Assembly: GCA_964500205.1 (NCBI GenBank) | Contig: CAZCNS010000004.1 | Span: 98,260 to 162,259 of the forward strand | Source of the DNA: an uncultured Chryseobacterium sp. | Lineage (GTDB): Bacteria > Bacteroidota > Bacteroidia > UBA10329 | DNA length: 64,000 nt | Reading direction: 5' to 3' | In this document: piece after piece, positions 23,947-50,497 of the stretch | Numbering within the stretch: the stretch's first letter is position 1 | Layout: each line of letters opens with the position of its first letter | Position numbers and translations under genes: made by a program | The notes under the pieces: model-generated | Seen by the model: only the letters and a program-made list of their open reading frames with translations | What the model was told of the DNA's origin: nothing | Databases searched by the model: none

Positions 23947-24064
23947 GACCCTGATGCACTGTTGGCCGATCGTCAGATGTTCCAATTCCGATGGCACACA
24001 AGTTTTATTTGAGTGTTCATAGGATTTATGCCCATTTCTGCAATTGTTGTTGAGACTGAGAACT

Positions 24065-24100
24065 GGTACAGATTAGGGAATCAATTCCCATATTTGTACC
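24065..24100. promoter_or_regulatory. Nested 36-bp palindrome GGTACAGATTAGGGAATCAATTCCCATATTTGTACC, copy 2, ending about 12 bp before the ATPase start
   Basis: The outer arms (GGTACA / TGTACC) and inner arms (GGGAAT / ATTCCC) are both reverse-complementary. It overlaps the predicted promoter/RBS zone of the 24112 gene. Confidence 0.55.
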
Positions 24101-24111
24101 AATTTTAGATC

Positions 24112-25272: not shown

Positions 25273-25445
25273 GAGGGTGGGGTAATGCTTTTGAACCGCA
25301 ATGACAACGAGTTGCATGAAACCTGACATCACTTAACAGGCAGTACATTCGCCCTGCAACAGCGCCAAAACCAGTGTAAATCTTTCATCGTACTCCTTTC
25401 GTCATATCCGCTCCGCATGTGCGGGGTTCCTAATCCGCAACCCAG

Positions 25446-26984
25446 ATGCTTGTAAAAACCTTCGGAAGCGCAGTGTACGGGGTCGATGCCAACCTCATCA
25501 CCATAGAGACCAACATCACGCTGGGCGGGGTCAACTTCTTCATGGTGGGCCTGCCCGACAACGCGGTGAAGGAGAGCCAGCAGCGCATACAGACCGCGCT
25601 CAAGAACAACGGCCTCAAATGGCCCGGCAAGCACATCGTCATCAACATGGCCCCTGCCGATGTGCGCAAGGAAGGCTCGGCCTACGATCTCACCTTGGCC
25701 GTGGGCATCCTCTCTGCATCGGAGCAGATCCCTGCCGATCAGGTCAGCGATTATATGATTATGGGCGAGTTGGCCCTCGATGGCAGTATGAGGCCCATCA
25801 AGGGTGCGCTTCCTATAGCTATCCTTGCCCGCGAGAAAGGTCTGAAGGGCTTTATCCTGCCCAGTGCCAATGCCCGCGAGGCTGCCATTGTAGATGGCAT
25901 AGAGGTTTATGGCGTAGACAACATCACGCAGGTCATCGACTTCTTCAAGGGCGACAGACCTCTGGAACCCACCGTGGTCAATACCCGTGAGGAGTTTTTC
26001 AAGCATCTCTACCAGAGCGATGTCGATTTCAGCGATGTGAAAGGGCAGGAGAACATCAAGCGGGCAATGGAGATAGCCGCTGCGGGTGGGCACAACATCC
26101 TGCTCATCGGCCCACCAGGCGCGGGCAAGACCATGCTGGCCAAAAGGTTGCCCACTGTGCTGCCACCCCTTTCGCTGCGTGAAGCTTTGGAGACCACCAA
26201 GATCCATTCTGTGGTCGGAAACCTCGGCCGCGAGTCTGCCCTCATCTCGCAGCGGCCGTTCCGCTCACCGCACCACACCATCTCTGACGTGGCCCTGGTG
26301 GGCGGAGGGCAGATCCCGCAACCGGGCGAGATCTCATTGGCACACAACGGGGTGCTTTTTCTCGATGAACTGCCCGAGTTCAGCCGAGGGGTGCTGGAGG
26401 TGATGCGTCAGCCCTTGGAAGACCGTAGGGTCACCATCAGCCGTGCGCGGCTCTCGGTGGAATACCCCAGTAGCTTCATGCTGGTGGCGAGCATGAACCC
26501 GTGCCCCTGCGGCTATTACAACCACCCCGACAAGGACTGCGTGTGCGCCCCGGGCGTGGTGCAGAAATACCTGAACAAGATCAGCGGGCCGCTGCTCGAC
26601 CGCATCGACATGCACGTGGAGGTGACGCCCGTGCCCATCAACGAGCTGGCCGATGCCCACAACAGCGAGAAGAGCGAGGAGGTGCGCAAGCGCGTGATCA
26701 GTGCACGGGAGGCGCAGACCGAGCGGTTCAAGGGCACCGACATCCACTGCAATGCGCAGATGGGCGCCAAGACCCTGCGCGAGGTGTGTGCATTGGACGA
26801 TGCGGGCCGTGCCATGCTCAAGAAGGCCACTGACCGCCTCGGACTCAGTGCCCGTGCCTTCGACCGCATCCTCAAGGTGTCGCGCACCATTGCCGATCTC
26901 GATGGCAGCGACCGCATCCTGCCCAACCACCTCGCAGAGGCGATACAGTACAGGAGCTTGGACAGGGCGAACTGGGCGGGGTGA
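25446..26984 (+). CDS. comM: Mg-chelatase-like ATPase YifB/ComM
   Basis: 512 aa. Lon-like N-domain, Walker A GPPGAGKT, and the typical C-terminal ChlI helix bundle. Confidence 0.9.
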   Translation: MLVKTFGSAVYGVDANLITIETNITLGGVNFFMVGLPDNAVKESQQRIQTALKNNGLKWPGKHIVINMAPADVRKEGSAYDLTLAVGILSASEQIPADQVSDYMIMGELALDGSMRPIKGALPIAILAREKGLKGFILPSANAREAAIVDGIEVYGVDNITQVIDFFKGDRPLEPTVVNTREEFFKHLYQSDVDFSDVKGQENIKRAMEIAAAGGHNILLIGPPGAGKTMLAKRLPTVLPPLSLREALETTKIHSVVGNLGRESALISQRPFRSPHHTISDVALVGGGQIPQPGEISLAHNGVLFLDELPEFSRGVLEVMRQPLEDRRVTISRARLSVEYPSSFMLVASMNPCPCGYYNHPDKDCVCAPGVVQKYLNKISGPLLDRIDMHVEVTPVPINELADAHNSEKSEEVRKRVISAREAQTERFKGTDIHCNAQMGAKTLREVCALDDAGRAMLKKATDRLGLSARAFDRILKVSRTIADLDGSDRILPNHLAEAIQYRSLDRANWAG

Positions 26985-27005
26985 GAAGCCAACAAATGGC
27001 TCAGT

Positions 27006-27431
27006 TCATTTGAACATGTCCTCAAATTCTGCTTTGGTCAGAATATTCAGTCGTTTGAACTTTTCTTCGAGACGGGCTTTCTCCTGAAGAATGTGTCTGT
27101 CCCCACTTGTTATAAAGCCGCTGTTGGTCTGGAGGGCAAGGGCGACCACATAATCATCGTCCCTATCGGCAGGGATATACCTTTTGATGGGCGGCTTGAG
27201 TGCGAACGGGATGGTGTTGTCTCGGATGAAGCGCAGTGCATAGCTCCTATTCACACCGTACTTCTCAAGGTGCGGATAAGCGAGCACCCTGCGAATTTCG
27301 GTCAGCAGTTCCTCACAGCAGAAAATTGCAATTCGATGTTCGGCAATGATCTGCAACAGGGTCTCTTCCTGCCTTCCGATGAGGTAACTAACCCATACGT
27401 TTGCATCCAACACGAACCTGTCCTTACGCAT
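27006..27431 (-). CDS. PIN-domain toxin (TIGR00305-like toxin-antitoxin PIN family)
   Basis: About 141 aa from the internal ATG MRKDRFVLDANVWVSYL. Acidic PIN residues are present. Its start overlaps the upstream small gene. Confidence 0.65.
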   Translation of the reverse strand: MRKDRFVLDANVWVSYLIGRQEETLLQIIAEHRIAIFCCEELLTEIRRVLAYPHLEKYGVNRSYALRFIRDNTIPFALKPPIKRYIPADRDDDYVVALALQTNSGFITSGDRHILQEKARLEEKFKRLNILTKAEFEDMFK

Positions 27432-27642
27432 CCGCTTGGCGCGACAGGTGTTTGATACGGTCAATCTCTTCCAATGAAGGCGCGCTCAGACCTTTGGGCA
27501 TAGCTGTTCTGTCAGGGATGCCATCACTCAGGAGCTTCCTCGCACGGAGGCTTATAAGCAGGGCCTGCTGCTGCTCATTGCTCATGGCTTTCAGTTCAAC
27601 CATCAGCTCCTTGAGCATCATATCAGTATCAGAGGTGGGCAT
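27424..27642 (-). CDS. Putative antitoxin partner of the PIN toxin
   Basis: 72 aa small helical protein whose 3' end overlaps the PIN gene start, as is typical for TA operons. No family assigned. Confidence 0.45.
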   Translation of the reverse strand: MPTSDTDMMLKELMVELKAMSNEQQQALLISLRARKLLSDGIPDRTAMPKGLSAPSLEEIDRIKHLSRQADA

Positions 27643-27832
27643 ATCCAGTCAGTTGTCAAGCAAAATTACACAGATTCGTTCTTCAACATCAGACACTGCT
27701 GTCCAGGGCAGGCGAACTGGGTGGGGTGATGTGTACGGAGCACAATTCATAGATGTGGATCACGCGTGCATAATTTGCAACATTCATTTTTCATATATAA
27801 CAGTAAATCAGATGTTAATGTTATTTCAATCC

Positions 27833-27872: not shown

Positions 27873-29076
27873 TTTTTCTATCTTTGCGGCCGTCATGGCA
27901 CTAACGAGGATATTTGATATGCGGCTGTTGAAGCTGCTCCGGACCTTCCCGGCTGTGGGCCTGATAGGTCCGAGGCAGGCAGGCAAGACCACGGCTGCCA
28001 AACTGGTGCAGCGTCAACTGAAAAAGCCGGCCATCTATCTCGACCTCGAAAGTCCGTCTGATTTCCGCAGATTCTCCGACCCCGAGCTGTTCCTCACAGA
28101 GCTGGAGGACACCTGCGTCATCATTGACGAGGTGCAGCGGATGCCCGAGCTTTTCCCACTGCTGCGCTCACTGATAGACCGCAACCGTAAGCCCGGACGG
28201 TTCCTGCTGCTGGGTTCGGCCTCGCCTGAGCTGGTAGCGGGCGTGAGCGAGTCGCTGGCGGGGCGTATCAGCTATCTGGAGGCGCATCCCTTCCATATCC
28301 TCGAACTTCCCGACCGTCCGACAACGCAGCGGAAACACTGGTTCCGTGGCGGATTCCCCGATGCGTGGAAGGCCCGCAGCGATGATGCTCGTTTCGAGTG
28401 GACGGACAACTTCGTGCGGACGTTCGTGGAGCGCGACCTCAACATGCTCTTCGGTACATCATTCTCCCCTCAGGTGATGTTCCGCCTCTGGCGAATGTTG
28501 GCACATCACCATGGAGGGGCGTGGAACGCGCAGTCCATCGCCAAGGCACTTGACATGAGCCCGACCACGGTGAACCGCTACGTGGATTTCCTCGAAGGGG
28601 CGTTCATGCTGCGCAGGCTCGCGCCCTACCACGCCAACACCCGCAAACGCCTGAGCAAGACACCGAAGGTCTATGTGCGTGACAGCGGGCTGCTGCACTA
28701 CCTGCTCGACATCAACCGGGCGGCCGATCTGCTCTCGCACCCATCGGTGGGGCATTCGTGGGAAGGGCATGTCATCGAGCAGATCATCGCCCTGCTGCCA
28801 AGGACAATACAACCGTTCTACTACCGCACCCATGACGGGGCGGAAATGGACCTGGTGCTGGTGAAAGGGGTCGCCCCGATAGCCTCCATCGAGGTGAAGC
28901 TGACGCTCTCGCCCACCGTGACGCGCGGGATGCGGGAAAGCATCAAAGACCTGGGCACAGCGCAGAACTTCATCATCACCCCGCAGGATTCGCCTTCCTA
29001 CCCCATCGCTGACGATATCCGTGTATTGGGGCTGCGGGAGTTCGTCACCACGCTGCTCCCGAAGTTGGTGAAATGA
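27868..29076 (+). CDS. AAA+ ATPase, DUF4143 family (second copy; diverged paralogue)
   Basis: Walker A LIGPRQAGKTT and Walker B IIDEVQ. The alternative start MRLLKLL at 27919 lies downstream of the palindrome. Confidence 0.8.
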   Translation: MNFSIFAAVMALTRIFDMRLLKLLRTFPAVGLIGPRQAGKTTAAKLVQRQLKKPAIYLDLESPSDFRRFSDPELFLTELEDTCVIIDEVQRMPELFPLLRSLIDRNRKPGRFLLLGSASPELVAGVSESLAGRISYLEAHPFHILELPDRPTTQRKHWFRGGFPDAWKARSDDARFEWTDNFVRTFVERDLNMLFGTSFSPQVMFRLWRMLAHHHGGAWNAQSIAKALDMSPTTVNRYVDFLEGAFMLRRLAPYHANTRKRLSKTPKVYVRDSGLLHYLLDINRAADLLSHPSVGHSWEGHVIEQIIALLPRTIQPFYYRTHDGAEMDLVLVKGVAPIASIEVKLTLSPTVTRGMRESIKDLGTAQNFIITPQDSPSYPIADDIRVLGLREFVTTLLPKLVK

Positions 29077-29245
29077 TACCGCTGAACAACTTGAAGAGCA
29101 ATCCACAGCGACCGCATCCTGCCAACCACCTCGCGGAGGCGATTCAATATCGGAGTTTGGACAGGGCGAACCGGGCGGGGTGAAAAACAAACCCCGACAC
29201 CGCCTCAAGGACAGGGTCGGGGAAAGTTCTGAATTTTGGCAGCTA

Positions 29246-32689: not shown

Positions 32690-32839
32690 ATGTCTATCTG
32701 GCGCGTACTGCTGTGTATCATCTTCCCGCCCCTTGCGGTCATTGACAAGGGCTGCGGCTCTGTGCTCATCGTGGTGCTGCTCACCCTCGCGGGCTGGGTG
32801 CCGGGCGTCATTGGTGCGCTGGTCATCAACAAGAAGTAG
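32690..32839 (+). CDS. YqaE/Pmp3 (UPF0057) family small stress-responsive membrane protein
   Basis: 49 aa from the internal ATG: MSIWRVLLCIIFPPLAVIDKGCGSVLIVVLLTLAGWVPGVIGALVINKK, a textbook Pmp3 signature. Confidence 0.75.
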   Translation: MSIWRVLLCIIFPPLAVIDKGCGSVLIVVLLTLAGWVPGVIGALVINKK

Positions 32840-32869: not shown

Positions 32870-33526
32870 ATGTGGCAGCACGTGCGTACCCTATTTCTCA
32901 AGGAATTCCGTTTGGAGCTGCGCAACCGGTATGCGCTCAACGGCATTCTGCTCTATGTGGTGAGCACCGTTTTTGTCTGCTATCTCAGCTTCAAGCAGGT
33001 CGTTAGCGCACCCGTTTGGAATGCGCTTTTCTGGGTCATCATGCTGTTCGCTGCGCTGAATGCCGTGGGGCGGTCGTTCGTGCAGGAGGGCCGTGGGCGG
33101 ATGCTCTACTACTATTCCGTCATCGGGCCGCAGGCGTTCGTGCTGGCCAAGATGCTCTACAATGCCCTGCTGATGGCTGTCATCGGGGTGCTGGCCTACG
33201 TCATCTATGCGTGGTGGATAGGCGACATGGTGCAGGACCACGGCATGTTCGTCCTCGCGCTGGTGTTGGGCAGCGTGGGCTTCGCGGGGATCCTCACGCT
33301 CATGTCGGCCATCGCGGCCAAGACGGACAACAACCTCAGCCTGATGGCCATTCTCAGCTTCCCTGTGCAGCTGCCGTTCCTGCTCACCCTCATCAAACTC
33401 TCGAAGAACGCGGTCGATGGCCTCGAACCTTCTGTCAGCTACCCGCTCATCGGGATCCTTGCGCTGCTGCTGGTGATCATCATCACCCTCAGCCTGCTGT
33501 TGTTCCCGTACCTTTGGCGGGATTGA
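32870..33526 (+). CDS. ccmB: Heme exporter protein B (CcmB), ABC permease
   Basis: 218 aa with six TM helices, followed by ccmC, ccmD, ccmE and ccmF. Confidence 0.75.
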   Translation: MWQHVRTLFLKEFRLELRNRYALNGILLYVVSTVFVCYLSFKQVVSAPVWNALFWVIMLFAALNAVGRSFVQEGRGRMLYYYSVIGPQAFVLAKMLYNALLMAVIGVLAYVIYAWWIGDMVQDHGMFVLALVLGSVGFAGILTLMSAIAAKTDNNLSLMAILSFPVQLPFLLTLIKLSKNAVDGLEPSVSYPLIGILALLLVIIITLSLLLFPYLWRD

Positions 33527-33644
33527 TTGTGAAGTGATTTTTTAGCATTTAAGGATGAAGGAAATGGGACGGGGGACGAGGGACGAAGGACGAGAGTGCG
33601 CGGTACGAACCATTTTCAATTTTCAATTTTCCATTCACTGAGTT

Positions 33645-34316
33645 TTGTTCAACGCAAGAATCCTCGGCCTTCATTGGTGGAAATGGCTTGCCATTCTCCT
33701 CATCCTCTTCTCGCTGACAGCGGGGATGCTCATTGATGTGCCTGAACTTCCCATCCTCAACGAGAGCATCCGTAACCTGTTCTACCACGTCACGCAGTGG
33801 TTCGGGATGATGATCATCCTGACGGCATCATTGGTCTATAGCGTCATCCACCTGGTGAAGGGCGACATGCGCAGCGACCGCATCGCAGCAGAGAGCATCA
33901 ATGTGGCCCTGTTCATGGGCGTGCTGGGCATCCTCACGGGCAGCCTGTGGGCCAAGTTCACTTGGGGTGGATGGTGGACCAACGACCCCAAGCTCAACGG
34001 GGTGGCGATGGGAATGCTCGTCTATCTGGCGTACATCGTGCTGCGCGGCAGCATGGACGAGGAGCAGAAGCGCGCCCGCGTGGCGGCCGTCTACAACATC
34101 TTCGCTTACGTGATGTTCATGGTGTTCATCATGGTGCTACCAAGGCTCACGGACAGTCTGCACCCTGGCAACGGGGGCAATCCCGGCTTCGGGGGCTACG
34201 ACCTGAATGACAACATGAAACTGGTGTTCTACCCTGCCATCATCGGGTGGACCCTGCTGGGGGTGTGGCTGGTGAATCTGAGAGTGAGACTCGTAAACTT
34301 GAAAGAGGAAATATGA
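33645..34316 (+). CDS. ccmC: Heme exporter protein C (CcmC)
   Basis: WWD-type tryptophan-rich motif WGGWWTNDPKLNG. Confidence 0.85.
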   Translation: MFNARILGLHWWKWLAILLILFSLTAGMLIDVPELPILNESIRNLFYHVTQWFGMMIILTASLVYSVIHLVKGDMRSDRIAAESINVALFMGVLGILTGSLWAKFTWGGWWTNDPKLNGVAMGMLVYLAYIVLRGSMDEEQKRARVAAVYNIFAYVMFMVFIMVLPRLTDSLHPGNGGNPGFGGYDLNDNMKLVFYPAIIGWTLLGVWLVNLRVRLVNLKEEI

Positions 34317-34555
34317 AAGCTGAAAGTGCGTATCTTTCTGTGAGACAGGGAAAATTGAAAATGGTGTGGAGTCTGCTGGCGTTGCTGATGCCTGTGGTCT
34401 CGTTTGCGCAAGGCGTTGACATGGCAGAGACCATGCGCAGCGAAGGCAAGATATATGTAGTGGTGGGTGTCATCGCCATCATCTTCATGGGTCTGGCTTT
34501 CTACCTCATCGCTCTCGACAGACGCATCTCGAAAATGGAGAATCGTAAACGGTGA
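34313..34555 (+). CDS. ccmD: CcmD-like small membrane protein
   Basis: Small single-TM protein between ccmC and ccmE. The start could be 34313 (4-bp overlap with ccmC) or 34361. Confidence 0.5.
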   Translation: MKAESAYLSVRQGKLKMVWSLLALLMPVVSFAQGVDMAETMRSEGKIYVVVGVIAIIFMGLAFYLIALDRRISKMENRKR

Positions 34556-34658
34556 AACTGAAACTGAAAGATGGGAATAGGGTTGGAAATCACTGGATAT
34601 TTTCTGCTCCCCTTGCCCCATTCGTAAATTCGACCCGCACGTGCGGGACTCGTAATTC

Positions 34659-35075
34659 GTGAATAAAGTGAAACGTACACACATCATCGGCATCATCGTC
34701 ATCGCCATCGCCATCGGAGCCATCATGAGCACGGTGGCAGACAGCAGCACCTACGCCTCATTCGCAGAGGCCATTGATAACCCCGGAAAGGAATACCACG
34801 TGGTGGGCCAGCTGAACAAGGAGGCTGAAATGACCTACAACCCTCAGGTGGACGCGAACCTGTTCTCGTTCTACATGTTGGACAACGAGGGCCGCGAGGA
34901 GCAGGTGCATTTCCATGGGAGCAAGCCGCAGGACTTTGAGCGTTCGGAGCAGGTGGTGCTGGTTGGCCGCTACAATGGTGAGATTTTCGAGGCGAATAAA
35001 ATCCTGATGAAATGCCCCTCCAAGTACGAGGATGGACAGCCGGGCGAGATGAAGGAATTCACGGCTGAGGGCTGA
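34659..35075 (+). CDS. ccmE: Cytochrome c-type biogenesis protein CcmE (heme chaperone)
   Basis: N-terminal TM anchor followed by an OB-fold-sized domain, in position between ccmD and ccmF. Confidence 0.75.
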   Translation: MNKVKRTHIIGIIVIAIAIGAIMSTVADSSTYASFAEAIDNPGKEYHVVGQLNKEAEMTYNPQVDANLFSFYMLDNEGREEQVHFHGSKPQDFERSEQVVLVGRYNGEIFEANKILMKCPSKYEDGQPGEMKEFTAEG

Positions 35076-35108
35076 ACCTAACAACCCATTAAGGGTTAAA
35101 TCTTTTCG

Positions 35109-37517
35109 ATGGAAATCAACTACATAGGTGAACAACTGATGCCCGGCAAGCTCGGGCATTTCTTTATCGTGCTGGGCTTCGTGTCGGCACTGGTGGCGGC
35201 CATCGCTTACTATTTCGGGGCGAAGGATGATGCCGAGTCGAATGGCTGGCGCAAGATGGGCCGTGTGGCGTTCGGCATCCATTCGTTCTCTGTGCTCAGT
35301 GTGGTAGGCATATTGCTCGGACTATTGGCCAACCATCGCTTCGAATACCATTACATCTGGCAGCACTCGAATACCGAGATGCCCATGGAATATATTCTTT
35401 CCAGCTTCTGGGAAGGGCAGGAGGGCAGTTTCTTGCTGTGGTTGTTCTGGCATGTGGTGCTGGGTCTCATCCTGATGTTCTCGGCCAAGAAATGGGAATC
35501 GCCCGTGATGGCGGTGTTCGCGCTGGTGCAGGCATTCCTCGTGTCGATGCTGCTGGGCACGCAGCTCGGTGATTTCCGTCTCGGCAGCAACCCGTTCGTG
35601 CTGCTGCGAGACCATCCCGATTTTATGAATCTGCCTTTCCTTCAGAACGCGAGCTACCTCACCAATCTGGACGGTCGCGGCCTCAACCCGCTGCTCCAGA
35701 ACTACTGGATGACTATCCACCCACCCACGCTGTTCTTAGGTTTTGCCAGTACGCTCGTGCCGTTTGCCTTCGCGATAGCGGGCCTTTGGAAAAAGCAGTA
35801 CACCGAATGGCTGAAGCCCGCCCTGCCTTGGACGTTCTTCGGTATCATGATTCTCGGCACGGGCATCCTTATGGGAGGTGCATGGGCCTACGAGGCATTG
35901 AGTTTCGGAGGATTCTGGGCTTGGGACCCCGTGGAGAATGCCAGCCTTGTACCGTGGATCACACTCGTTGGCGCGGCCCACGTCATGGTGATTCAGAAGA
36001 ACAAGGGGCAGTCGCTTATCATCACGTTCGTGCTCACGCTCATCACGTTCATCCTCATCCTTTACTCCACCTTCCTTACGCGGAGCGGGGTGCTCGGTGA
36101 GACAAGCGTGCACGCCTTCACCGACCTCGGCATGTCGGGCCAGCTGTTGGTCTATCTGCTATCTTTCCTGTTTCTGGCGATGCTGCTGCTGGCCGTGCGT
36201 TGGAAGGAACTGCCCAAGGCTGCTGAGGAGGAGAGTCTATACAGCCGCGAGTTCTGGATGTTCGTGGGTGCGATGGTGCTCAGCATTTCAGCCTTCCAGA
36301 TCAGTTTCAGCACCAGCATACCGGTCATCAACAAGGTGCTGGGCACGAACATCGCCCCACCCCTCGACCCCATTTCGCACTACAACAGTTGGCAGCTGCC
36401 GCTGGCGATCATCGTGGCGCTGCTCATTGCGGTGACTCAGTACCTCAAGTATCGCAAGACCGAGCCGAGGAAGTTCTACTCCGCGCTGGCGATTCCGTTC
36501 GGAGTTGCGCTGGTGCTGACCGTAGCGATTGCGGTGGCGATGAAATACACCCATTTCATGTATCTGCTGATGCTGTTCGCCACGCTCTTCACAGTGACAG
36601 CCAATCTCGGCTACTGGATTCAGATTCTGAAAGGGAAAATGGCTGTGGCGGGCGCATCGGTGGCGCACGTAGGATTCGGACTCATACTGCTGGGCGCATT
36701 CCTCAGTACCTCCAAGACTCAGACCATCAGCATGAACACAAGCGGTCTGGACGTCTCCAGCCTCGGGACCGACTACTCCAACCGCGAGAACATCCTGCTG
36801 ATGAAGGGCGACACGCTGCGGATGGCTGAGTATTTCGTCACCTACAAGGGGCGCAACAAGGAGGGAGTGAATATCTTCTACGAGGTGGAATACATGACGC
36901 AGCCCGCCCCTGGGCAGTACGAGACGGCCTTCACGCTCTACCCACGCGTGCAGACCAACCCGCGCATGGGCAACGTGGCCGAGCCTGACACGCGCCATTT
37001 CCTACACAAGGACATCTACACCTTCGTGACCTACGCGGAGATTGAGAAGCCCGATGTGAAGCCCGAGGACTTCAAGAACACCACCACCAAGGCACTGGCC
37101 GTGGGCGACACGCTCTTTGCGGGCAATGCCATCATCACCTTCGATGGTTTCGACCGCAATGTGGACAAGGCAGAACTCGGTCTGAAGGATGCGGATATTG
37201 CAGTGGGCGCCAAATTCACAGCGGTTGACATCAACAGCACGCGACATACGGCCATGCCCGTCTATGCGCTGCGCGATGCCTACGCCATCCCCGTGGAGGC
37301 GGAGATCGAACAGCTTGGCCTGAAATTCCGCATCAAGCGGCTCATACCTGAAGAGGGAAAAGTGGAGGTGGAACTCTACGAACGGGCCGACAACTACCGC
37401 GAGTTCATCGTGCTGAAAGCCCTTGTCTTCCCATGGATCAACATCCTGTGGGCGGGCTGCGTCATCATGGTCATCGGGACGGTGATGGCGATAAGGAGGA
37501 GGGTGAGGTTGGGGTAA
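35109..37517 (+). CDS. ccmF: Cytochrome c-type biogenesis protein CcmF (heme lyase component)
   Basis: 802 aa polytopic protein with the WWD motif WAYEALSFGGFWAWDPVENASLVPW. Confidence 0.9.
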   Translation: MEINYIGEQLMPGKLGHFFIVLGFVSALVAAIAYYFGAKDDAESNGWRKMGRVAFGIHSFSVLSVVGILLGLLANHRFEYHYIWQHSNTEMPMEYILSSFWEGQEGSFLLWLFWHVVLGLILMFSAKKWESPVMAVFALVQAFLVSMLLGTQLGDFRLGSNPFVLLRDHPDFMNLPFLQNASYLTNLDGRGLNPLLQNYWMTIHPPTLFLGFASTLVPFAFAIAGLWKKQYTEWLKPALPWTFFGIMILGTGILMGGAWAYEALSFGGFWAWDPVENASLVPWITLVGAAHVMVIQKNKGQSLIITFVLTLITFILILYSTFLTRSGVLGETSVHAFTDLGMSGQLLVYLLSFLFLAMLLLAVRWKELPKAAEEESLYSREFWMFVGAMVLSISAFQISFSTSIPVINKVLGTNIAPPLDPISHYNSWQLPLAIIVALLIAVTQYLKYRKTEPRKFYSALAIPFGVALVLTVAIAVAMKYTHFMYLLMLFATLFTVTANLGYWIQILKGKMAVAGASVAHVGFGLILLGAFLSTSKTQTISMNTSGLDVSSLGTDYSNRENILLMKGDTLRMAEYFVTYKGRNKEGVNIFYEVEYMTQPAPGQYETAFTLYPRVQTNPRMGNVAEPDTRHFLHKDIYTFVTYAEIEKPDVKPEDFKNTTTKALAVGDTLFAGNAIITFDGFDRNVDKAELGLKDADIAVGAKFTAVDINSTRHTAMPVYALRDAYAIPVEAEIEQLGLKFRIKRLIPEEGKVEVELYERADNYREFIVLKALVFPWINILWAGCVIMVIGTVMAIRRRVRLG

Positions 37518-37866
37518 GTCGGGCTGATTGCCCCTCGTTTTATTGGCGCAAAGTGCCCGTTTCAATGCTGTTTTGGGATTCCCTCATATTTCTTGGTGAC
37601 TCGGATGCCATGCGTTCAGATAAGAATATTCCTGCGGGCTGGAATTTATTAAGTACATGAAAAATTCTATTGTTTCTTTTCTGGCAATCGTACTCGGGAA
37701 CATTTTGTGTGCTAAATACTATCACACTCAAAGCGGTTTTAGATTTTTATCATTGCTAGGGCTTTTTATGGTTTTGGCATCAATTTTTTCCTTCTGAGCA
37801 AATTTTTCGAGGCTTTTTCGCAGCAGTAATGAACAACGTATTTCTGAAGAGAAATCTGTAACTATT

Positions 37867-38175
37867 ATGGCGATTGTTTTGGTGGTGTTAATTGTGCTAC
37901 AGGTGTTTGGGATGGTATTTTTTGATGATCATCAGAACAGATTACTTGAAGAACATGGACAATTTACAGAAACCATAGTTGTGAATAAAACGCGGGAAAG
38001 GCGCGGAAGAGGTGCCGCAGGCTACTACATACATTATATTTTCACTTACAATGGAAAGGAGTATAAACACGATGCAGAAATTGACTCTGTCGAAATTGGT
38101 GATACGATAGAAATTAAGTTTTATCCTGAGAACCCTGAAAACCACCGAGTCTTAACGAAAGGCTCGAATCGTTAA
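37867..38175 (+). CDS. DUF3592-like small membrane-anchored protein
   Basis: 102 aa with an N-terminal TM helix, then a beta-rich region with the IEIKFYPENPENHRVL pattern. Lies in an AT-rich segment. Confidence 0.5.
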   Translation: MAIVLVVLIVLQVFGMVFFDDHQNRLLEEHGQFTETIVVNKTRERRGRGAAGYYIHYIFTYNGKEYKHDAEIDSVEIGDTIEIKFYPENPENHRVLTKGSNR

Positions 38176-38344
38176 TAATTCAGTCTTAATCGTATGGCTG
38201 CTGCTTTTGTTTTGATTCGCTGTTAGTTCTCAGGAGGGGGTGTTATTGTGGTCTCTTTGCGATTTCATTAGCGTAGTAATTGTGATAGTTTGAAGTTGTC
38301 GTGAGCCGATTAGCAGGGTTATTCGGCTCACGATTCGGTCATTT

Positions 38345-38470
38345 ATGAGCCGATTGCAGCGTAGTGCATCCAAGGCCACCGCCACCCGCGACCTGCAAGA
38401 CCTTTCGGAAAAAGGGATTCTTACCGTGTCGGGCGGAGGAAGAAGCACGGGGTATCAGGTGAATCTCTGA
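38345..38470 (+). pseudogene. Remnant of the C-terminal winged-helix domain of a Fic/DOC-family protein
   Basis: The 41-codon ORF MSRLQRSASKATATRDLQDLSEKGILTVSGGGRSTGYQVNL matches the conserved C-terminal wHTH tail of Fic proteins. No Fic core lies upstream. Confidence 0.45.
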
Positions 38471-38550
38471 ATGTTCGGAGGGGATGCGTCATCGTGGTCA
38501 TCGGTACGGTGATGGCGATACGAAGGAGGGTGAGGTCGGGTTGACCTAAC

Positions 38551-40032
38551 TTGCGGCCTGAGATGGCTGCTTTCCTGAAAATGCGGGTGATACTGTCCTT
38601 GTCGACCATCGCTGTGTTGTTGGTCTTCTCCTTTTTCCGATTCTCTGCCTATCATTATCCCTTTCTTGATTCTGACATGGCCATCCATGTGCTCATGGCG
38701 CGTGGGTTCGAGTTTTACCATAATCTCTACTACTGGGGACAGACCCGCTTGGGCAGTCTTCTGCCGCTGGTGGCATTCTTTCCCTGGAAAGTCGGGCTGA
38801 ACCCGCTGAAGGCAGTTTCGCTGGCGCAGTGCGGCATGGTCGTGGTCACACTGGGCGGTTTTTTTCTTTTGGAAAGAAAGTGGTTGGGGTCGGTCGTGCT
38901 GGCCGCACTGTTCCTGCTTCCCCCACCGGCATTGGTGTACACGCTGATGCCCGGTCATCCTGCGTTGCCGCACATCATGCTCACGGTGCTCGGTGCGTAT
39001 GCCGTGATGAGGGTAGGTGCAGGCGATGCCCGTGCAGACAGTTTTTGGTTCTTGACCGGTTGGCTTTGCGCACTGATGGCGGTCTGGGTGTCCGATCTTG
39101 CCATGGTCACCGCACCTGCGCTGTGGGTCTGGATGGTGGTTCGGGTCAGGATTCGGTCGGGAGCTGACACATCGGTCCGGATATCGGTGGCTGTCGTCCT
39201 TGCCACTCTTTCACTTCCGTTGTGGGTGGCATGGCTCAAGAGCGGAAGGGTCGATTATTCGGGTTATGATGAGCAATCTGTTGCAGGGCTAATGATGGCT
39301 GGGAAGGGGCTGACAGCCCACCTTTATTCTCTTCTTGAGACGCTTATGATGAAGGATGGTTTCAGGTGGTCGGGGCTGTGGGCGGGTTTCATGGCACTGG
39401 CAACGGGTCTTGGTGTGCATGTACTGGTCGGTGATGCAAGGAGACGAGGCATGGCCGATACCCTGACGCATCCCTCGTTGCTGTTTTTGCTGCTTGCTGC
39501 GTTGACGTATGCCGCTACTATGATGAGCGGATGGGCCGCACTCAATGGCTACGATTCGCGTTACCTGGCAGTGCCGGTCGTGTTTCTCATGATGTCGCTC
39601 TGCATGATGTTAACGAACGAACGGCCACGGATGCCACTCGTCTTGACGCTGGTCATCGCTGCCATCGCCTCTGGATTGTCTTTCGGGGAGCAGGTGCCGC
39701 ACCCTGATAGGTTTCAAGTGAACGATGACGCTCGTGACCGCTTGCGTGCCATGCGGTCGGCCACCATTTTGGGCGACTACTGGTTCTGTTATGCCATGGC
39801 CTCGTACAATGCGGATGAGATTATTCCGATGCCGTTCGGGGAGGATTTTTACCGTAACGGACATCAGATAGAGGCAGCTTTTCTCAGCGATTCCATTTTC
39901 GTTTGCACTTCGACCAAGTATCCTCAGCTAAGTGACACATTGCATCAGCATGGTCGGATGCTACTGAAGACCGGTGAACCGCATTTCCAAGTCGGGAATG
40001 CTGTTTTGGCCAGGTATACCGTCCAACTCTAA
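38551..40032 (+). CDS. Polytopic integral membrane protein (GT-C/ArnT-like fold suspected), hypothetical
   Basis: 493 aa (start ambiguous, 38551-38581) with more than 10 predicted TM helices. Function unknown. Confidence 0.5.
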   Translation: MRPEMAAFLKMRVILSLSTIAVLLVFSFFRFSAYHYPFLDSDMAIHVLMARGFEFYHNLYYWGQTRLGSLLPLVAFFPWKVGLNPLKAVSLAQCGMVVVTLGGFFLLERKWLGSVVLAALFLLPPPALVYTLMPGHPALPHIMLTVLGAYAVMRVGAGDARADSFWFLTGWLCALMAVWVSDLAMVTAPALWVWMVVRVRIRSGADTSVRISVAVVLATLSLPLWVAWLKSGRVDYSGYDEQSVAGLMMAGKGLTAHLYSLLETLMMKDGFRWSGLWAGFMALATGLGVHVLVGDARRRGMADTLTHPSLLFLLLAALTYAATMMSGWAALNGYDSRYLAVPVVFLMMSLCMMLTNERPRMPLVLTLVIAAIASGLSFGEQVPHPDRFQVNDDARDRLRAMRSATILGDYWFCYAMASYNADEIIPMPFGEDFYRNGHQIEAAFLSDSIFVCTSTKYPQLSDTLHQHGRMLLKTGEPHFQVGNAVLARYTVQL

Positions 40033-41300
40033 AAACTCCACTTCAGCCTGAGAAACACGCTGTTGCTCAGGTTCTGGTAGCGGCTCACGAGCGCACCATC
40101 CTCAATTTCGGGGAATTCTGAGAAGAACAGCTGGCCCGTCAGCAGCAGGTCGATGTTCGTGGAGGCCGACCACGTGAGCGTGGGGTTCAGCAGCAGCAGG
40201 TGCGGGCCGAAGCCGTAGATAGCAGCAAAGCTGGCGTTGATGAGCGGGGTGATGGGGTAACTCACGGTCACAAAGGCGTTGTAGCGCGTGGGCATCAGGT
40301 TCTTCGCGCTCAGGACGGCCCCGCTGAAGAACGTGGCGAGCTTGGCGGGGTCAGAATCATCAATGCCGTTGCTGTTGAAGAGCACCGATCCGTTGAGGTA
40401 GAGCGAGTTGCGGAACGCATAGTCCACTGTCAGTGCGGCCGTAACGGTGTGGGTGCTGTCGGCAAAGCCCTCGAACGGCCCGAACCACTGCGCCTCGCCC
40501 TTGAAACCCGCGTTGCGGATGTTGCCCGCCCAGCCGATGCCAGCCGTCACATCGCGCCTGAACTGCCCTGCGATGAACTGGAGGTCATAGCCCCGCGCAT
40601 TCATCTTGTACATCACCGCTGCGGTCGATTCGTCCCAGCGTTCGCGGGGGGCCACCGCAATCTCGAAACCGCTCATGTTCTTCGCGAAATACTGGAACCG
40701 TACCGCGTCCGCACCAGGCCGTTCCTCATAGTCGAAGTCGATGAAGTTGTAGGCGTTGAAGATGTCGTTGGGGTTCCACGCGAGGTTCACGCCCCAGTTG
40801 ATGCGCTGGCGGCCCGCACGGATGTCCACCCTGCTGTTGCCCCAGCCTACGTACAGGCGGTCGAGGGAGGTGTTGAGCAGCACCGCTTCGTTGTTCCCGA
40901 TGTTCCACGTCATGTCCACGAGGCCATCATCCGCTTCGAGCATGTCGCGAGAGGCGGGGGTGGTCACCGTCCGTCCTGCATAGAAGAGGCGCGTGCGCAG
41001 CTCTGCTGCTACTGTGAAACCCGCGCTTGGGGTGATGCGCAAGTTCAGGCGGTTGTGGATGAAGTTCTCTGTGCTGTTACCGATGAGCGGGTTGCCTGAT
41101 AGCGACACGATGTTGAGGTTCTTCACATAGCCCCGCAGTTGCACGATGTCGGAGAATTTCGGACGCGGGGCGGAGGTGGTGTCGGATTCCTGAGCGTTCG
41201 CGATGCTGATCATCAACAGAGTGGTTGCGGCCACCCACCACCCCTTAGAGACGCGATTAATCGCGTCTCTACACGCCCATCGGAATGCCCTGTTAACCAT
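40029..41300 (-). CDS. Outer-membrane beta-barrel protein, hypothetical, first gene of the Lol-like ABC cluster
   Basis: Signal peptide, alternating beta-strand pattern and C-terminal aromatic residue (…LRLKWSF). 4-bp overlap with the downstream membrane protein gene. Confidence 0.55.
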   Translation of the reverse strand: MVNRAFRWACRDAINRVSKGWWVAATTLLMISIANAQESDTTSAPRPKFSDIVQLRGYVKNLNIVSLSGNPLIGNSTENFIHNRLNLRITPSAGFTVAAELRTRLFYAGRTVTTPASRDMLEADDGLVDMTWNIGNNEAVLLNTSLDRLYVGWGNSRVDIRAGRQRINWGVNLAWNPNDIFNAYNFIDFDYEERPGADAVRFQYFAKNMSGFEIAVAPRERWDESTAAVMYKMNARGYDLQFIAGQFRRDVTAGIGWAGNIRNAGFKGEAQWFGPFEGFADSTHTVTAALTVDYAFRNSLYLNGSVLFNSNGIDDSDPAKLATFFSGAVLSAKNLMPTRYNAFVTVSYPITPLINASFAAIYGFGPHLLLLNPTLTWSASTNIDLLLTGQLFFSEFPEIEDGALVSRYQNLSNSVFLRLKWSF

Positions 41301-41319
41301 TCTCTATTATCCGTTAACC

Positions 41320-42000
41320 CTACCGCCTCTCATCACTCACAACCCTTCCATCTTCCAGAACGATTACCCTGCGCGCACGGTCTATCACGCGCTGGTCGTG
41401 GGTCGAGAAGATGAACGTGATGCCCTCCTCCGCGTTGAGCCGCGCCATGATGTCGAGCAGGTTGAAGGCGCTCTTGCTGTCGAGGTTGGCGGTGGGTTCA
41501 TCGGCCAGCACGAAATCGGGCTTGGAGGCCAGTGCCCGTGCCACGGCCACGCGCTGCTGCTGGCCACCTGAGAGCTGGGTTGGACGCTTGTCCATCTGGT
41601 CTGCCAGACCCACTTCTCGAAGCAGTTGCTCCACACGGGCATCACGTTCGGCCTTGGGCACGTTCTGAAGGAGCATGATGAACTCCGCGTTCTCGCGGGC
41701 CGTGAGTACGGGGATGAGGTTGTAGCTCTGAAACACGAACCCGATGTGCCGCAGGCGGAAGTCTATCAGTTCGCTGTCCGTGAGGCCCGTCAGCTCCTTG
41801 CCGTTCACTTGGATACTGCCCGAAGTCGGACGGTCGAGACCACCGATCATGTTCAGCAGCGTGGTCTTGCCACTGCCCGAAGGCCCGATGACAGCGGTGA
41901 ATTCATTGTCCTCGATGGTCAGATCGACCTTCTTCACCGCATGAACGGGCACTACCCCTTCGTAGGTCTTGGTAAGCTGTTTTGTCTCAATTACGTTCAT
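41320..42000 (-). CDS. ABC transporter ATP-binding protein (LolD/MacB-type)
   Basis: Walker A GPSGSGKTT, ABC signature LSGGQQQRV, and Walker B FVLADEPT. Confidence 0.9.
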   Translation of the reverse strand: MNVIETKQLTKTYEGVVPVHAVKKVDLTIEDNEFTAVIGPSGSGKTTLLNMIGGLDRPTSGSIQVNGKELTGLTDSELIDFRLRHIGFVFQSYNLIPVLTARENAEFIMLLQNVPKAERDARVEQLLREVGLADQMDKRPTQLSGGQQQRVAVARALASKPDFVLADEPTANLDSKSAFNLLDIMARLNAEEGITFIFSTHDQRVIDRARRVIVLEDGRVVSDERR

Positions 42001-42009
42001 GGCAATTGC

Positions 42010-43224: not shown

Positions 43225-43352
43225 TCGCTTTTCGCCTTTCGCTCTTCGCGGAAAAGGCACTGGTTTTTCGGTTGTGCTTCTGCAAACATTTTTCTTCGAA
43301 TCTCTGTGTGCTCAATGGTTCGGTGGCGAACAGTGAACAGCGAACGGCTTTC

Positions 43353-48758: not shown

Positions 48759-48805
48759 GGGGCGCGCCATTCGCCATATTCGTACCCATTCGAAATTAGC
48801 AACCA

Positions 48806-50467: not shown

Positions 50468-50497
50468 TAAATTAAATCACATTCTTGCCTTGTTGAA

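What the first reader, a model, noticed from the sequence alone, without database searches (positions are those of the whole stretch)
37459..38544. Second case of the same architecture: ccmF 3' terminus duplicated 1 kb downstream around an AT-rich islet
37459-37517 (end of ccmF) and 38486-38544 are 59-bp direct repeats with ~86% identity. Both retain an open frame encoding …VIGTVMAIRRRVR-x-G followed by a stop. The ~970 bp between them is far lower in GC than the flanks. It carries a DUF3592-like gene, a possible 46-codon hydrophobic peptide ORF (~37657-37797), a 10-bp-stem hairpin at ~38292-38325, and a 41-codon remnant of a Fic-family C-terminal wHTH. Finding this twice in one window (comM and ccmF) points to a recurrent mechanism in this genome that targets the 3' ends of conserved genes.
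Basis: seen in the sequence. Interest (0 to 1): 0.65.

Follow-up and report, generated by a model that had tools for sequence, protein, structure and literature searches.

The report
Leftover ccmF gene end beside imported islet
The last ~60 bases of the cytochrome-maturation gene ccmF really are present twice, about 1 kb apart, around a patchwork of foreign DNA; this most likely marks where DNA from related bacteria recombined in and left the old gene end stranded, a known kind of genome scar.

Summary
ccmF's last 60-64 nt (37454-37517) recur at 38481-38544 with 90% identity. Five independent metagenome contigs confirm this: three identical to the window and two strain variants. The comM case is also real and in fact has three copies. 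These are the only two cases in the window. About 1.8 Mb of related loci gave none of this kind.

Differences between copies are mostly synonymous (ccmF 5 of 7 differing codons, comM 6 of 7). So the copies diverged as working gene ends in separate lineages. That rules out slippage or an in-place duplication.

The islet is a stack of three pieces:
- a low-GC block holding one DUF3592 gene split by a nonsense codon (the "46-codon ORF" is its N-terminus);
- the stem-loop block that follows ccmF directly in the closest relative;
- a 41-codon wHTH gene-end remnant ("Fic" is only a database label).

No recombinase gene exists in the 64 kb. The two repeat pairs share no core. Remnant lengths vary.

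A distant relative (L088) shows the same footprint made purely from two chromosomal haplotypes. ccmF and its flank are also recombination mosaics.

Best reading (~0.5): homology-anchored import with an illegitimate far joint (HFIR-like 3' displacement). Rival (~0.3): decayed integrase-type islands (CIME-like, as e14 at icd). Both mechanisms are known; interest is moderate to low.

The parts
35109..37517 (+). ccmF (802 aa), the anchoring conserved gene, last gene of ccmB-C-(D)-E-F
   Evidence: Pfam Cytochrom_C_asm and CcmF_C. 94% aa identity to L004. Nucleotide identity to L004 is 99-100% for about nt 40-416 and 80-93% after that.
37454..37517 (+). c1: the proximal, in-use ccmF 3' end (21 codons plus stop)
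   Evidence: Repeat family D11. 92% identical to L004's ccmF end, against 81% for c2.
37518..38217 (+). Low-GC block (about 700 bp) inserted directly after the ccmF stop codon. No terminal repeats, no ccmF-end copy on its right side.
   Evidence: GC 0.35-0.40. L004 goes from the ccmF stop to the sequence that starts at window ~38218 within 6 nt. No inverted or direct terminal repeats. No internal ccmF-end copy. No match in plasmids or phages. Only 3 differences from L147 within the block; the wider tract 37401-38300 has 4.
37657..37797 (+). N-terminal fragment (46 codons, hydrophobic) of the DUF3592 gene, ended by a nonsense codon TGA at 37795-37797
   Evidence: P0122 in L147 is a single 172-aa ORF covering this ORF, a linker and the DUF3592 ORF. 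The window has G37796 where L147 has C.
37867..38175 (+). DUF3592-domain ORF (102 aa), the C-terminal part of the split 172-aa gene
   Evidence: Pfam PF12158, 27.5 bits vs cut-off 25.3. Exact copies in L001-L003. No detectable relatives in the word-indexed search.
38218..38354 (+). Stem-loop block: the sequence that natively follows ccmF in relative L004 (stem-loop at 38300-38332, probably the ccmF terminator)
   Evidence: Window 38289-38354 matches L004 5177-5242 at 89%, with a weaker extension back to about 38218. RNA fold -27.5 kcal/mol, z -5.4. No Rfam family.
38345..38470 (+). 41-codon 3'-terminal remnant of a wHTH-ending gene (labelled 'Fic family' by JGI; Fic domain not verified)
   Evidence: PF22168 E 1.8e-4, below cut-off. 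52 homologs, all 39-71 aa. Strongly diverged between the window and L147 (39 differences in 200 nt) but similar in L150.
38481..38544 (+). c2: the displaced distal copy of the ccmF 3' end, now a non-functional remnant
   Evidence: D11. Present in L001-L003, L147 and L150. In L150 it has picked up nonsynonymous changes. No ccmF similarity upstream of 38481.
38563..40032 (+). 489-aa membrane protein gene that begins 18 nt after c2; probably the original downstream neighbour of ccmF in this lineage
   Evidence: Gene call in L001. No Pfam, NCBIfam or PADLOC family. Absent from the ccmF flanks of all other species.
26908..26993 (+). comM case: the proximal, in-use comM 3' end (comM is 25446-26984)
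   Evidence: D7. 79 nt at 90% against the copy at 29106-29183. Pfam Mg_chelatase family.
27006..27642 (-). comM islet A: PIN_3 toxin (27009-27431) and upstream antitoxin-like ORF (27427-27642)
   Evidence: Pfam PIN_3. TIGR00305. Confirmed in L148 and L149. Relatives L144 and L145 hold a different PIN_3/DUF6364 pair in the same slot, with no BLASTP similarity to this one.
27700..27730 (+). Short middle copy (~25-30 nt) of the comM end
   Evidence: 19 nt at 95%, E 8e-4. Read directly from the sequence.
27919..29076 (+). comM islet B: AAA_14/DUF4143 ATPase (PADLOC candidate defence protein PDC-S01)
   Evidence: Pfam. PADLOC PDC-S01, E 6e-86.
29108..29192 (+). Distal displaced copy of the comM 3' end (about 85 nt, with a 1-nt deletion)
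   Evidence: D7. Of 7 differing codons, 6 are synonymous and 1 is not.

Best explanation
The two ccmF ends are not a duplication made in place. They are two alleles of the same gene end from different lineages.

Proposed mechanism (inferred): DNA from a related bacterium, consisting of the 3' part of ccmF plus whatever lay downstream of it in the donor, paired with the resident ccmF by homology on its left side. This is homology-facilitated illegitimate recombination (HFIR), also described as sequential 3' displacement.

The result is a working ccmF with the donor's end (c1), followed by donor flank DNA, followed by the stranded last 64 nt of the old ccmF (c2) and the old neighbour gene.

Repeated events anchored in the same gene would then stack up, each overwriting the left part of what was there before and leaving only a right-hand (3') remnant:
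- first, an event that brought in a wHTH-ending gene and left c2;
- then one that brought the ccmF-plus-stem-loop haplotype and left the 41-codon wHTH remnant;
- then one that brought the low-GC DUF3592 block and joined just past the stop codon, so it left no remnant.

The comM locus (PIN toxin/antitoxin, a ~30-nt remnant, the PDC-S01 ATPase, an 85-nt remnant) is read the same way.

What is shown: the repeats, the coding-constrained divergence, the composite make-up of the islet, the absence of recombinase genes in the window, the haplotype junction in L088, and the mosaic patterns.

What is inferred: the recombination route itself, the order of events, and the ultimate origin of the low-GC block.
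For: 1. Copies diverged under coding constraint. In ccmF, 5 synonymous vs 2 nonsynonymous differing codons (P=0.012). In comM, 6 vs 1 (P=3e-4). In L088, Ser is TCA in one copy and AGC in the other.
2. Similarity between copies stops at or just after the stop codon.
3. The islet contains the native ccmF downstream sequence of relative L004: stem-loop block, 89% identity, collinear with c1 (92%). L004 has no second ccmF end.
4. L088 shows the same footprint built only from chromosomal haplotypes. A type-B ccmF end plus its native ccmF-DUF2520 spacer, up to ~13 nt before DUF2520, is joined to the last ~36 nt of a type-A ccmF and the type-A flank.
5. Remnant lengths differ between events: ccmF 64 nt, L088 ~36 nt, comM 85 and ~30 nt.
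6. The low-GC block has no repeat on its right side.
7. No integrase or transposase in any large ORF of the window. No XerD-like ORF in 1.8 Mb of flanks, though this is a weak test.
8. The ccmF and comM repeats share no core.
9. Recombination mosaics. The window vs L004 has 100% identical blocks within an ~87% background, with one breakpoint inside ccmF. The window, L147 and L150 show three-way incongruence across 2 kb.
10. The slot after ccmF is variable across the family, with gaps to DUF2520 from -4 nt to 2.6 kb. Two unrelated PIN pairs occupy the slot after comM.
11. Precedent for the model: PMC5361080; definition of HFIR in PMC3240628.
Against: - No donor genome was found, so the illegitimate joints cannot be checked for microhomology.
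- HFIR is reported to be orders of magnitude rarer than ordinary homologous recombination (PMC5361080), yet two or more footprints lie within 64 kb.
- The 100% blocks shared with L004 could be a chimeric co-assembly contig and not real exchange.
- The low-GC block (35-40% GC) cannot have started as chromosomal flank of a close 57%-GC relative, so its first arrival needs another step.
- The cargo (toxin-antitoxin pair, candidate defence ATPase, wHTH gene) is what mobile islands typically carry.
- The comM array looks like tandem accretion at an attachment site.
- c1 resembles the relatives' native ends more than c2 does. This fits the model only if the donor was L004-like.
Confidence: 0.5

Rival explanations
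1. Scars of site-specific integrative elements (tyrosine or serine recombinase). An island whose attachment site carried a replacement copy of the gene's 3' end integrated into ccmF (and others into comM), as prophage e14 does at icd. The integration genes later decayed, leaving CIME-like islets flanked by attL and attR. Further elements integrated in tandem (accretion).
For: - The architecture matches. Direct repeats flank the islet, one of them is the in-use gene end, and both copies can code, with synonymous differences, as for icd/icdC around e14 (PMC13626634).
- 3' ends of housekeeping genes are common targets. CIMEs and tandem accretion are documented (PMC5704250).
- comM has three copies separating two unrelated cargo modules.
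- The cargo is typical of islands: PIN toxin-antitoxin, PDC-S01 ATPase, wHTH remnant.
- The low-GC composition of one block.
- comM c1 and c3 start with a perfect 17-nt run that could be a crossover core (output).
Against: - No integrase, excisionase, relaxase or transposase gene or remnant in the islets or anywhere in the 64 kb.
- No intact element at these sites in ~137 ccmF and 5 comM loci of relatives.
- No hits to either core in IMG/VR.
- The tandem copies at comM differ in length (85 vs ~30 nt), which a fixed crossover core does not predict.
- The low-GC block lacks a right-hand repeat.
- Part of the 'element' is the native ccmF flank of L004, which itself has no displaced copy.
- L088's insert is pure chromosomal spacer.
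- The two sites share no core, so at least two separate recombinases would be needed.
Confidence: 0.3
2. Campbell-type (single-crossover) homologous integration of circular DNA that carried a fragment of the ccmF or comM 3' end. Examples would be a circle excised from a relative's chromosome between direct repeats, or a non-replicating plasmid. Such an event gives chimeric direct repeats around the insert.
For: - It produces direct repeats of a gene segment around foreign DNA without any recombinase.
- It is compatible with the synonymous-difference pattern and with the evident recombination in the population.
Against: - It needs a circular intermediate carrying only ~60-85 nt of ~87-90% identical homology, which is very inefficient.
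- It does not explain why similarity ends at the stop codon in every case.
- It does not explain why the other leftovers (wHTH remnant, ~30-nt comM copy) are all 3' ends of differing length.
- It does not explain L088, where the insert ends inside a chromosomal spacer.
Confidence: 0.08
3. A local duplication made in place (replication slippage or tandem duplication), or an assembly artefact, followed by decay. The islet would be an unrelated later insertion.
For: The copies are short, direct and close together. Species-level relatives lack them.
Against: - Five independent assemblies carry the structure.
- The differences are biased to synonymous sites (P=0.012 and 3e-4), whereas a dead duplicate should decay neutrally.
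- c2 shares states with other species' alleles: CGN at the Arg codon as in L006 and L093, and GGGTTGA as in L005.
- The same footprint occurs at comM and in L088.
Confidence: 0.03

Closest known systems
Sequential 3' displacement by homology-facilitated illegitimate recombination (V. cholerae T6SS effector-immunity arrays; Rhs 'C-terminal displacement'; orphan CDI/Rhs 3' ends), PMC5361080
   Same: A conserved upstream sequence anchors the incoming DNA. The new module lands next to the anchor and pushes older material downstream, leaving strings of orphaned 3' pieces. No integrase is involved. The locus is a recombination mosaic.
   Different: Here the anchors are housekeeping genes (ccmF, comM), not toxin genes with a variable C-terminus. 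What is left behind is a 30-85 nt gene end, not a toxin tip with its immunity gene. The cargo is small defence-type or membrane genes. No selective reason for keeping the remnants is apparent.
Prophage e14 (and phage 21) at icd in E. coli: icd extends into the element and an icdC C-terminal pseudogene lies at the far end (PMC13626634; Hill et al. 1989, as cited there)
   Same: A protein gene's 3' end is present twice in direct orientation around inserted DNA. The proximal copy is in use. The copies differ mostly by synonymous or conservative changes.
   Different: e14 is ~15 kb, encodes its own integrase and excises. The islets here are 0.7-1.4 kb with no recombinase, have a composite origin that includes a relative's chromosomal flank, and leave remnants of unequal length.
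CIMEs and tandem accretion of ICE/IME-type elements at 3' ends of housekeeping genes (PMC5704250)
   Same: Islets without integration genes are bounded by repeats that include the target gene's end. Several modules can sit in tandem at one gene end (comM).
   Different: By definition a CIME keeps functional attL and attR of a known ICE/IME family. No cognate element or integrase was found here, and the repeat lengths at comM are unequal.
Genomic islands in tandem at ssrA in Dehalococcoides, each bounded by a repeat of the gene's 3' end (PMC3146451; abstract only, seen)
   Same: Repeated copies of a conserved gene's 3' end delimit successive islands.
   Different: Those islands are associated with site-specific integration at a fixed short repeat. 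I did not read this paper beyond the abstract.

Membership tests
HFIR-type / sequential 3' displacement footprint | One-sided homology anchor: the recombination tract starts inside the conserved gene | tested here: inconclusive
   Identity to L004 drops sharply from 100% to ~87% at ccmF nt ~416. Divergence from L147 is patchy in the last 400 nt of ccmF. A chimeric L004 contig cannot be excluded, and the tract cannot be assigned to a specific event.
HFIR-type / sequential 3' displacement footprint | The inserted DNA is the donor's own chromosomal flank, collinear with the imported gene end | tested here: met
   Window 38218-38354 is L004's native post-ccmF sequence. L088's spacer is the native type-B ccmF-DUF2520 intergenic region. 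This is not shown for the low-GC block.
HFIR-type / sequential 3' displacement footprint | Far-end joint at a non-homologous site, position variable between events, usually with microhomology | tested here: inconclusive
   Variable positions are met: 64, ~36, 85 and ~30 nt before the stop, and +6 after it. Microhomology cannot be tested without donor sequences.
HFIR-type / sequential 3' displacement footprint | The displaced piece is a former functional allele (diverged under purifying selection) | tested here: met
   Synonymous bias: ccmF 5 vs 2 differing codons, comM 6 vs 1, L088 3 vs 2 including TCA/AGC for Ser. L088's distal copy and its flank equal the native ends of L009, L010 and L090.
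Integrase-type integrative element / CIME | [quoted passage not shown] | tested here: met
Integrase-type integrative element / CIME | A site-specific recombinase gene in the island or, for a CIME, a related intact element using the same attachment site | tested here: not met
   No recombinase in any large window ORF. None next to ccmF or comM in relatives. No core matches in IMG/VR. The rest of the genome was not available.
Integrase-type integrative element / CIME | Fixed crossover core, so repeats in a tandem array have equal extent | tested here: not met
   The comM copies are 85 nt and ~30 nt. The low-GC block at ccmF has no right-hand copy.
Integrase-type integrative element / CIME | Excision to a circle, with precise empty sites in the population | not testable with these tools
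   No reads were available, and no empty-site contig was recovered.
Diversity-generating retroelement (VR at the gene's 3' end, TR downstream) | Mismatches confined to adenines of the template repeat; a reverse transcriptase gene nearby | tested here: not met
   The mismatches are C/A, A/G, G/T, A/C, G/A and T/C. No RT among the window ORFs.
Integron cassette array | An IntI integrase with attI, and cassettes separated by attC sites with imperfect dyad symmetry | tested here: not met
   No integrase was found. The separating repeats are gene ends with no notable dyad symmetry (self vs reverse-complement scores 11 and 15, comparable to the ~12.5-13 shuffle means of the cross-comparisons in the same call).
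DUF3592 family (cargo gene) | Pfam PF12158 above its gathering score | tested here: met
   27.5 bits vs 25.3. The gene is split by a nonsense codon in the window.
Fic family (the 41-codon remnant) | Fic/DOC domain (PF02661), or demonstrable homology to the C-terminus of Fic-domain proteins | tested here: not met
   Only a sub-threshold wHTH match (PF22168). All 52 homologs are 39-71 aa with no Fic domain. 'Fic family protein' is a JGI label. No NCBIfam hit.

The most novel reading that the evidence does not exclude
This lineage might have a dedicated route, independent of classical integrases, that places small defence or toxin-antitoxin cassettes exactly at the stop codons of conserved genes. 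Each cassette would travel with a replacement copy of the gene's last 20-30 codons, for example as mini-cassettes mobilised in trans by an unlinked recombinase or a recombination system that reads gene ends. This would explain two sites in 64 kb, against none of this kind in 1.8 Mb of related loci, and the exact placement of the low-GC block after the ccmF stop.
Probability: 0.1. Interest if true: 0.7.

Novelty: new member of a known kind. Interest (0 to 1): 0.35.

Why it matters
If the homology-anchored reading is right, these loci are natural footprints of one-sided recombination at ordinary housekeeping genes. They would show how small defence and toxin-antitoxin genes get wedged between conserved genes in uncultured freshwater Flavobacteriales without any mobile-element machinery. 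Stranded gene ends could then serve as a dated record of successive imports.

On the practical side, short displaced gene ends like c2 can be mistaken for attachment sites of mobile elements, or cause contig breaks and mis-annotation in metagenome-assembled genomes.

If the integrase reading is right, the finding is simply two more decayed islands at two new target genes.

Tried and rejected
- DGR (VR/TR): mismatches are not adenine-specific and there is no RT.
- Slippage or in-place duplication: rejected on the synonymous bias and the independent contigs.
- Shared core between the ccmF and comM repeats: alignment scores sit at the shuffle mean.
- Transposon-like ends on the low-GC block: no terminal inverted repeats or target-site duplication.
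- Known RNA in the islet or hairpin: nothing in Rfam, at gathering or permissive thresholds.
- attP-like copies of either core in IMG/VR: none.
- Low-GC block DNA in plasmids and the full-length 172-aa DUF3592 protein (P0122) in phages: no match.
- Homologs of the DUF3592 protein: only itself, so the cargo's origin could not be traced.
- Exact CcmF look-up: not on record.
- Empty-site or strain variants through the exact 489-aa protein: only the same Logan contigs.
- Partial ccmF-end copy inside the islet: best score equals the null mean.
- XerD-bait HMM screen of 2,742 ORFs from the window and about 1.8 Mb of fetched loci: no hit. The bait was written from memory and there was no positive control, so this negative is weak.
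- Simple inversion model for the ccm operon. The Pmp3 gene lies upstream of ccmB here but downstream of ccmF in L004 and L006, and L004's upstream neighbour lies at window ~62.6 kb. The model fits the gene order, but it does not explain c2 and could not be resolved further.
- Bulk Pfam screen of 313 downstream ORFs: prepared but not run, because the summary output would hide rare families. Ten representative ORFs were scanned instead.

Full report
1. THE OBSERVATION

The repeat is real. Positions 37454-37513 and 38481-38540 are 60 nt at 90% identity (family D11). A blastn-short search of ccmF's last 130 nt against the next 8 kb gives 52 nt at 92%, E 2e-16. Read in frame, both copies are open to a stop codon.

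ccmF (35109-37517) is confirmed by Pfam and follows ccmB, ccmC and ccmE. GC falls to 0.35-0.40 between 37600 and 38300, against 0.55-0.60 in the flanks.

The structure is not an assembly artefact. Three Logan contigs are 100% identical across 37383-40500. Two JGI contigs from other samples, L147 (96.6%) and L150 (94.5%), carry the same distal copy.

The comM case is also real: 71-79 nt at 86-90%.

A systematic scan of every ORF end in the window finds only these two cases. The same scan on about 1.8 Mb of fetched loci (1,893 ORF ends) finds three hits. All three align over essentially the whole 110-nt query, as tandem paralogs would.

2. WHAT THE ISLET IS MADE OF

The ~960 bp between the copies is a composite of three pieces.

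(a) 37518 to about 38217 is the low-GC block. Its two ORFs are one gene. In L147 a single 172-aa ORF (P0122) spans the '46-codon peptide', a linker and the DUF3592 domain. The window has TGA where L147 has TCA, at position 37796. The DUF3592 match passes Pfam's cut-off. The block has no terminal inverted or direct repeats, no ccmF-end copy on its right side, and no match in plasmids or phages.

(b) About 38218-38354 is the sequence that follows ccmF directly in the closest species-level relative, L004 (CcmF 94% aa identity). Window 38289-38354 matches L004 5177-5242 at 89%, with a weaker extension back to ~38218. That extension begins 6 nt after the ccmF stop codon in L004. It contains a very stable stem-loop at 38300-38332 (-27.5 kcal/mol, z -5.4). 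The stem-loop has no Rfam family and is probably the ccmF terminator. That role is inferred.

(c) 38345-38470 is a 41-codon 3' remnant ending in a winged-helix motif. Pfam gives only a sub-threshold PF22168 hit. All 52 database homologs are 39-71 aa. 'Fic family protein' is a JGI label on some of them, and no Fic domain was seen. The Fic attribution is therefore unverified.

The distal ccmF end (c2) follows 10 nt later. A 489-aa membrane-protein gene starts 18 nt after c2.

3. COMPARATIVE EVIDENCE

The window comes from an uncultured Flavobacteriales lineage.

No other species shows the duplication. Among 79 species-representative ccmF loci and 57 metagenome loci, none has a second ccmF end within 8-10 kb, apart from one short case, L088 (positive control). 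None has the DUF3592, wHTH, 489-aa or neighbouring 423-aa genes near ccmF. c2 therefore exists only in this species-level lineage. Because it is shared by strains 3-5% apart, it is older than their split. In L150, c2 has picked up nonsynonymous changes, as a dead remnant should.

The slot after ccmF is variable. In most of the family, ccmF is followed by a DUF2520 gene. The gap ranges from -4 nt to 2.6 kb and sometimes holds cargo genes.

The slot after comM is variable too. The 95% relative L142 goes from comM straight to mgtE. The 90% relatives L144 and L145 have a PIN_3/DUF6364 pair in exactly the window's position, but it shows no BLASTP similarity to the window's pair.

4. THE COPIES ARE TWO ALLELES, NOT A DECAYED DUPLICATE

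Differences between copies fall mainly at synonymous sites.
- ccmF: 5 synonymous and 2 nonsynonymous among 7 differing codons within the repeat (P=0.012).
- comM: 6 and 1 (P=3e-4).
- L088: one Ser codon is TCA in one copy and AGC in the other.

Both copies must therefore have served as working gene ends while they diverged. It is expected both for an element-borne replacement end (as in e14 at icd, PMC13626634) and for an allele from another lineage.

5. WHICH MECHANISM

Two known mechanisms produce this architecture:
- integration by a site-specific recombinase whose attachment site mimics the gene end, followed by decay to CIME-like islets and tandem accretion (PMC5704250);
- homology-facilitated illegitimate recombination (HFIR), in which incoming DNA is anchored by homology on one side and joined illegitimately on the other (PMC3240628). 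This has been proposed to create stacks of displaced 3' pieces at T6SS and Rhs loci (PMC5361080).

Several results favour HFIR.

(i) L088. Its proximal ccmF end and the ~95-nt spacer are collinear with the ccmF end and native ccmF-DUF2520 intergenic region of L084, L085 and L086, up to ~13 nt before DUF2520. There the sequence switches to the last ~36 nt of ccmF and the downstream flank of the other haplotype, seen as the sole end in L009, L010, L090 and L007. That is a joint between two chromosomal haplotypes with no element DNA.

(ii) In the window, c1 and the stem-loop block form the same collinear unit as in L004, at similar divergence (92% and 89%). L004 has no displaced copy.

(iii) Remnant lengths differ between events (64, ~36, 85 and ~30 nt), and the low-GC block joins 6 nt past the stop and leaves no remnant. 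A fixed crossover core would not give this.

(iv) Every leftover is a 3' end, including the wHTH remnant. This is expected if each event overwrites from the left.

(v) No recombinase or transposase was found in any large ORF of the window. None lies beside ccmF or comM in relatives. An XerD-bait screen of the flanks was also negative, but it lacked a positive control. Neither core occurs in IMG/VR.

(vi) The ccmF and comM repeats share no core.

(vii) The locus is a recombination mosaic.
- Against L004 there are blocks of 100.0% identity (33186-34185 and 35148-35524) in an ~87% background. One breakpoint lies inside ccmF.
- The window, L147 and L150 give conflicting relationships in adjacent segments. 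The window and L150 share the wHTH remnant type. L147 and L150 share the downstream gene. The window and L147 share the low-GC block.

Against the HFIR reading:
- no donor was identified, so microhomology at the joints is untested;
- HFIR is reported to be rare;
- the L004 blocks might be a co-assembly chimera;
- the low-GC block cannot have originated as flank of a close relative;
- the cargo (PIN toxin-antitoxin; DUF4143 ATPases matching PADLOC candidate PDC-S01 at E 6e-86 and 3e-101) and the three-copy comM array are what integrative islands look like.

I put the homology-anchored model at about 0.5, the decayed integrative-element model at about 0.3, Campbell-type integration of a circle at under 0.1, and in-place duplication or artefact at about 0.03.

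6. PROPOSED HISTORY (INFERRED)

ccmF was once followed directly by the 489-aa gene, with c2 as the original gene end. Successive imports anchored in ccmF then brought:
- a wHTH-ending gene, with the joint 64 nt before the old stop;
- next an L004-like ccmF end with its stem-loop, with the joint inside the wHTH gene, leaving 41 codons;
- finally the low-GC DUF3592 gene, with the joint 6 nt after the stop.

The DUF3592 gene has since acquired a nonsense codon in the window strain.

At comM, one event left the 85-nt remnant and brought the PDC-S01 ATPase. A later event left the ~30-nt remnant and brought the PIN pair.

7. COMPARISON WITH WHAT IS KNOWN, AND NOVELTY

Both candidate mechanisms are established, so the finding is a new member of a known kind. 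What is somewhat unusual is the setting:
- short stranded ends of housekeeping genes flank very small defence-type islets;
- this happens twice within 11 kb;
- it is in an uncultured freshwater Flavobacteriales lineage with evident inter-lineage recombination.

The inference of a process that targets gene ends through a shared recombinase is not.

8. VERDICT

The feature is real and well confirmed, and its parts are now resolved. It is most likely a recombination scar and not a new system. Interest is moderate to low (0.35). About a tenth of the probability remains for a dedicated cassette-insertion route that reads gene ends.

Noticed in passing
window 23863-25445 (gene 24112-25272, +): A second AAA_14/DUF4143 ATPase (PADLOC PDC-S01, E 3e-101) sits between the M43 peptidase gene and comM. 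In the 95% relative L142 those two genes are only 47 bp apart, so this is another single-gene insertion, on the 5' side of comM, with no flanking repeat detected.
   Followed up: partly
window 32886-37517 vs L004 581-5134: Identity between the ccm operons is a patchwork. There are two blocks with zero mismatches (33186-34185 and 35148-35524) inside ~87% identical sequence. This is either recent gene-conversion-like exchange between lineages or a chimeric co-assembly contig.
   Followed up: partly
window 32691-32839 (+); L004 5278-5430 (-); L006 2534-2689: A small Pmp3/YqaE-type membrane protein gene lies just upstream of ccmB in the window. In L004 and L006 it lies just downstream of ccmF and converges on it. 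L004's gene upstream of ccmB maps to window ~62635-63102 on the opposite strand. This fits an inversion of the ccm operon relative to its flanks plus ~24 kb of non-syntenic DNA (38.5-62.6 kb).
   Followed up: partly
L088 10925-11355: The ccmF-DUF2520 spacer in several relatives is a ~95-nt hairpin-forming sequence (aacacagat...atctgtgtt). L088 also has an IS66-family transposase fragment (11086-11355, -) just beyond its displaced ccmF end.
   Followed up: partly
homologs of window 38345-38467 (P0123-P0174): All 52 detected homologs of the wHTH remnant are short ORFs of 39-71 aa from diverse sources (Nitrospira, Gelidibacter and many metagenomes). They could be a family of small stand-alone wHTH proteins, or 3' fragments of one gene family that are repeatedly stranded.
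   Followed up: no
L001-L003, L148/L149 and L150 contig ends (window ~26856, ~33059, 37383/37448, 38289): Independent short-read contigs break ~130 nt before the stop codons of both comM and ccmF, and L150 starts exactly at the left edge of the stem-loop block. This suggests that co-occurring haplotypes diverge at these junctions in the sampled populations.
   Followed up: no
L150 3114-3491, 4616-5116, 6429-7442 vs window 40029-44579: The related strain L150 has extra small genes (a DUF559 endonuclease-like gene, a 166-aa ORF and a 337-aa ORF) wedged between the outer-membrane, ABC and FtsX genes, which are contiguous in the window. This is more single-gene insertion polymorphism in the same lineage.
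   Followed up: no
window 42010-44579 (-): Two tandem paralogous MacB/FtsX permease genes give direct repeats at a spacing of 1355 nt (families D14, D15, D17). These are ordinary paralogs, not gene-end duplicates.
   Followed up: yes
window 14001-16300 and 48800-52000: Other low-GC patches (0.48-0.53) hold an HNH endonuclease gene (14475-15257, -), a 42-nt tandem repeat array (15685-16020), an FRG-domain protein matching PADLOC candidate PDC-S15 (50498-51769, -) and a 553-aa protein with no known family. These may be further small defence islets.
   Followed up: no
window 29743-31797 (+): A 684-aa protein has an N-terminal CarboxypepD_reg-like domain and a long Ala/Glu/Lys-rich region built from 87-nt (29-aa) tandem repeats (30646-31217).
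   Followed up: no
window 57452-58889: A 420-aa ORF combines GldL N-terminal and GldM N-terminal domain matches (gliding/T9SS components). It lies next to the window's only tRNA gene, tRNA-Leu(CAA), on the minus strand. There is no integrase beside the tRNA.
   Followed up: no
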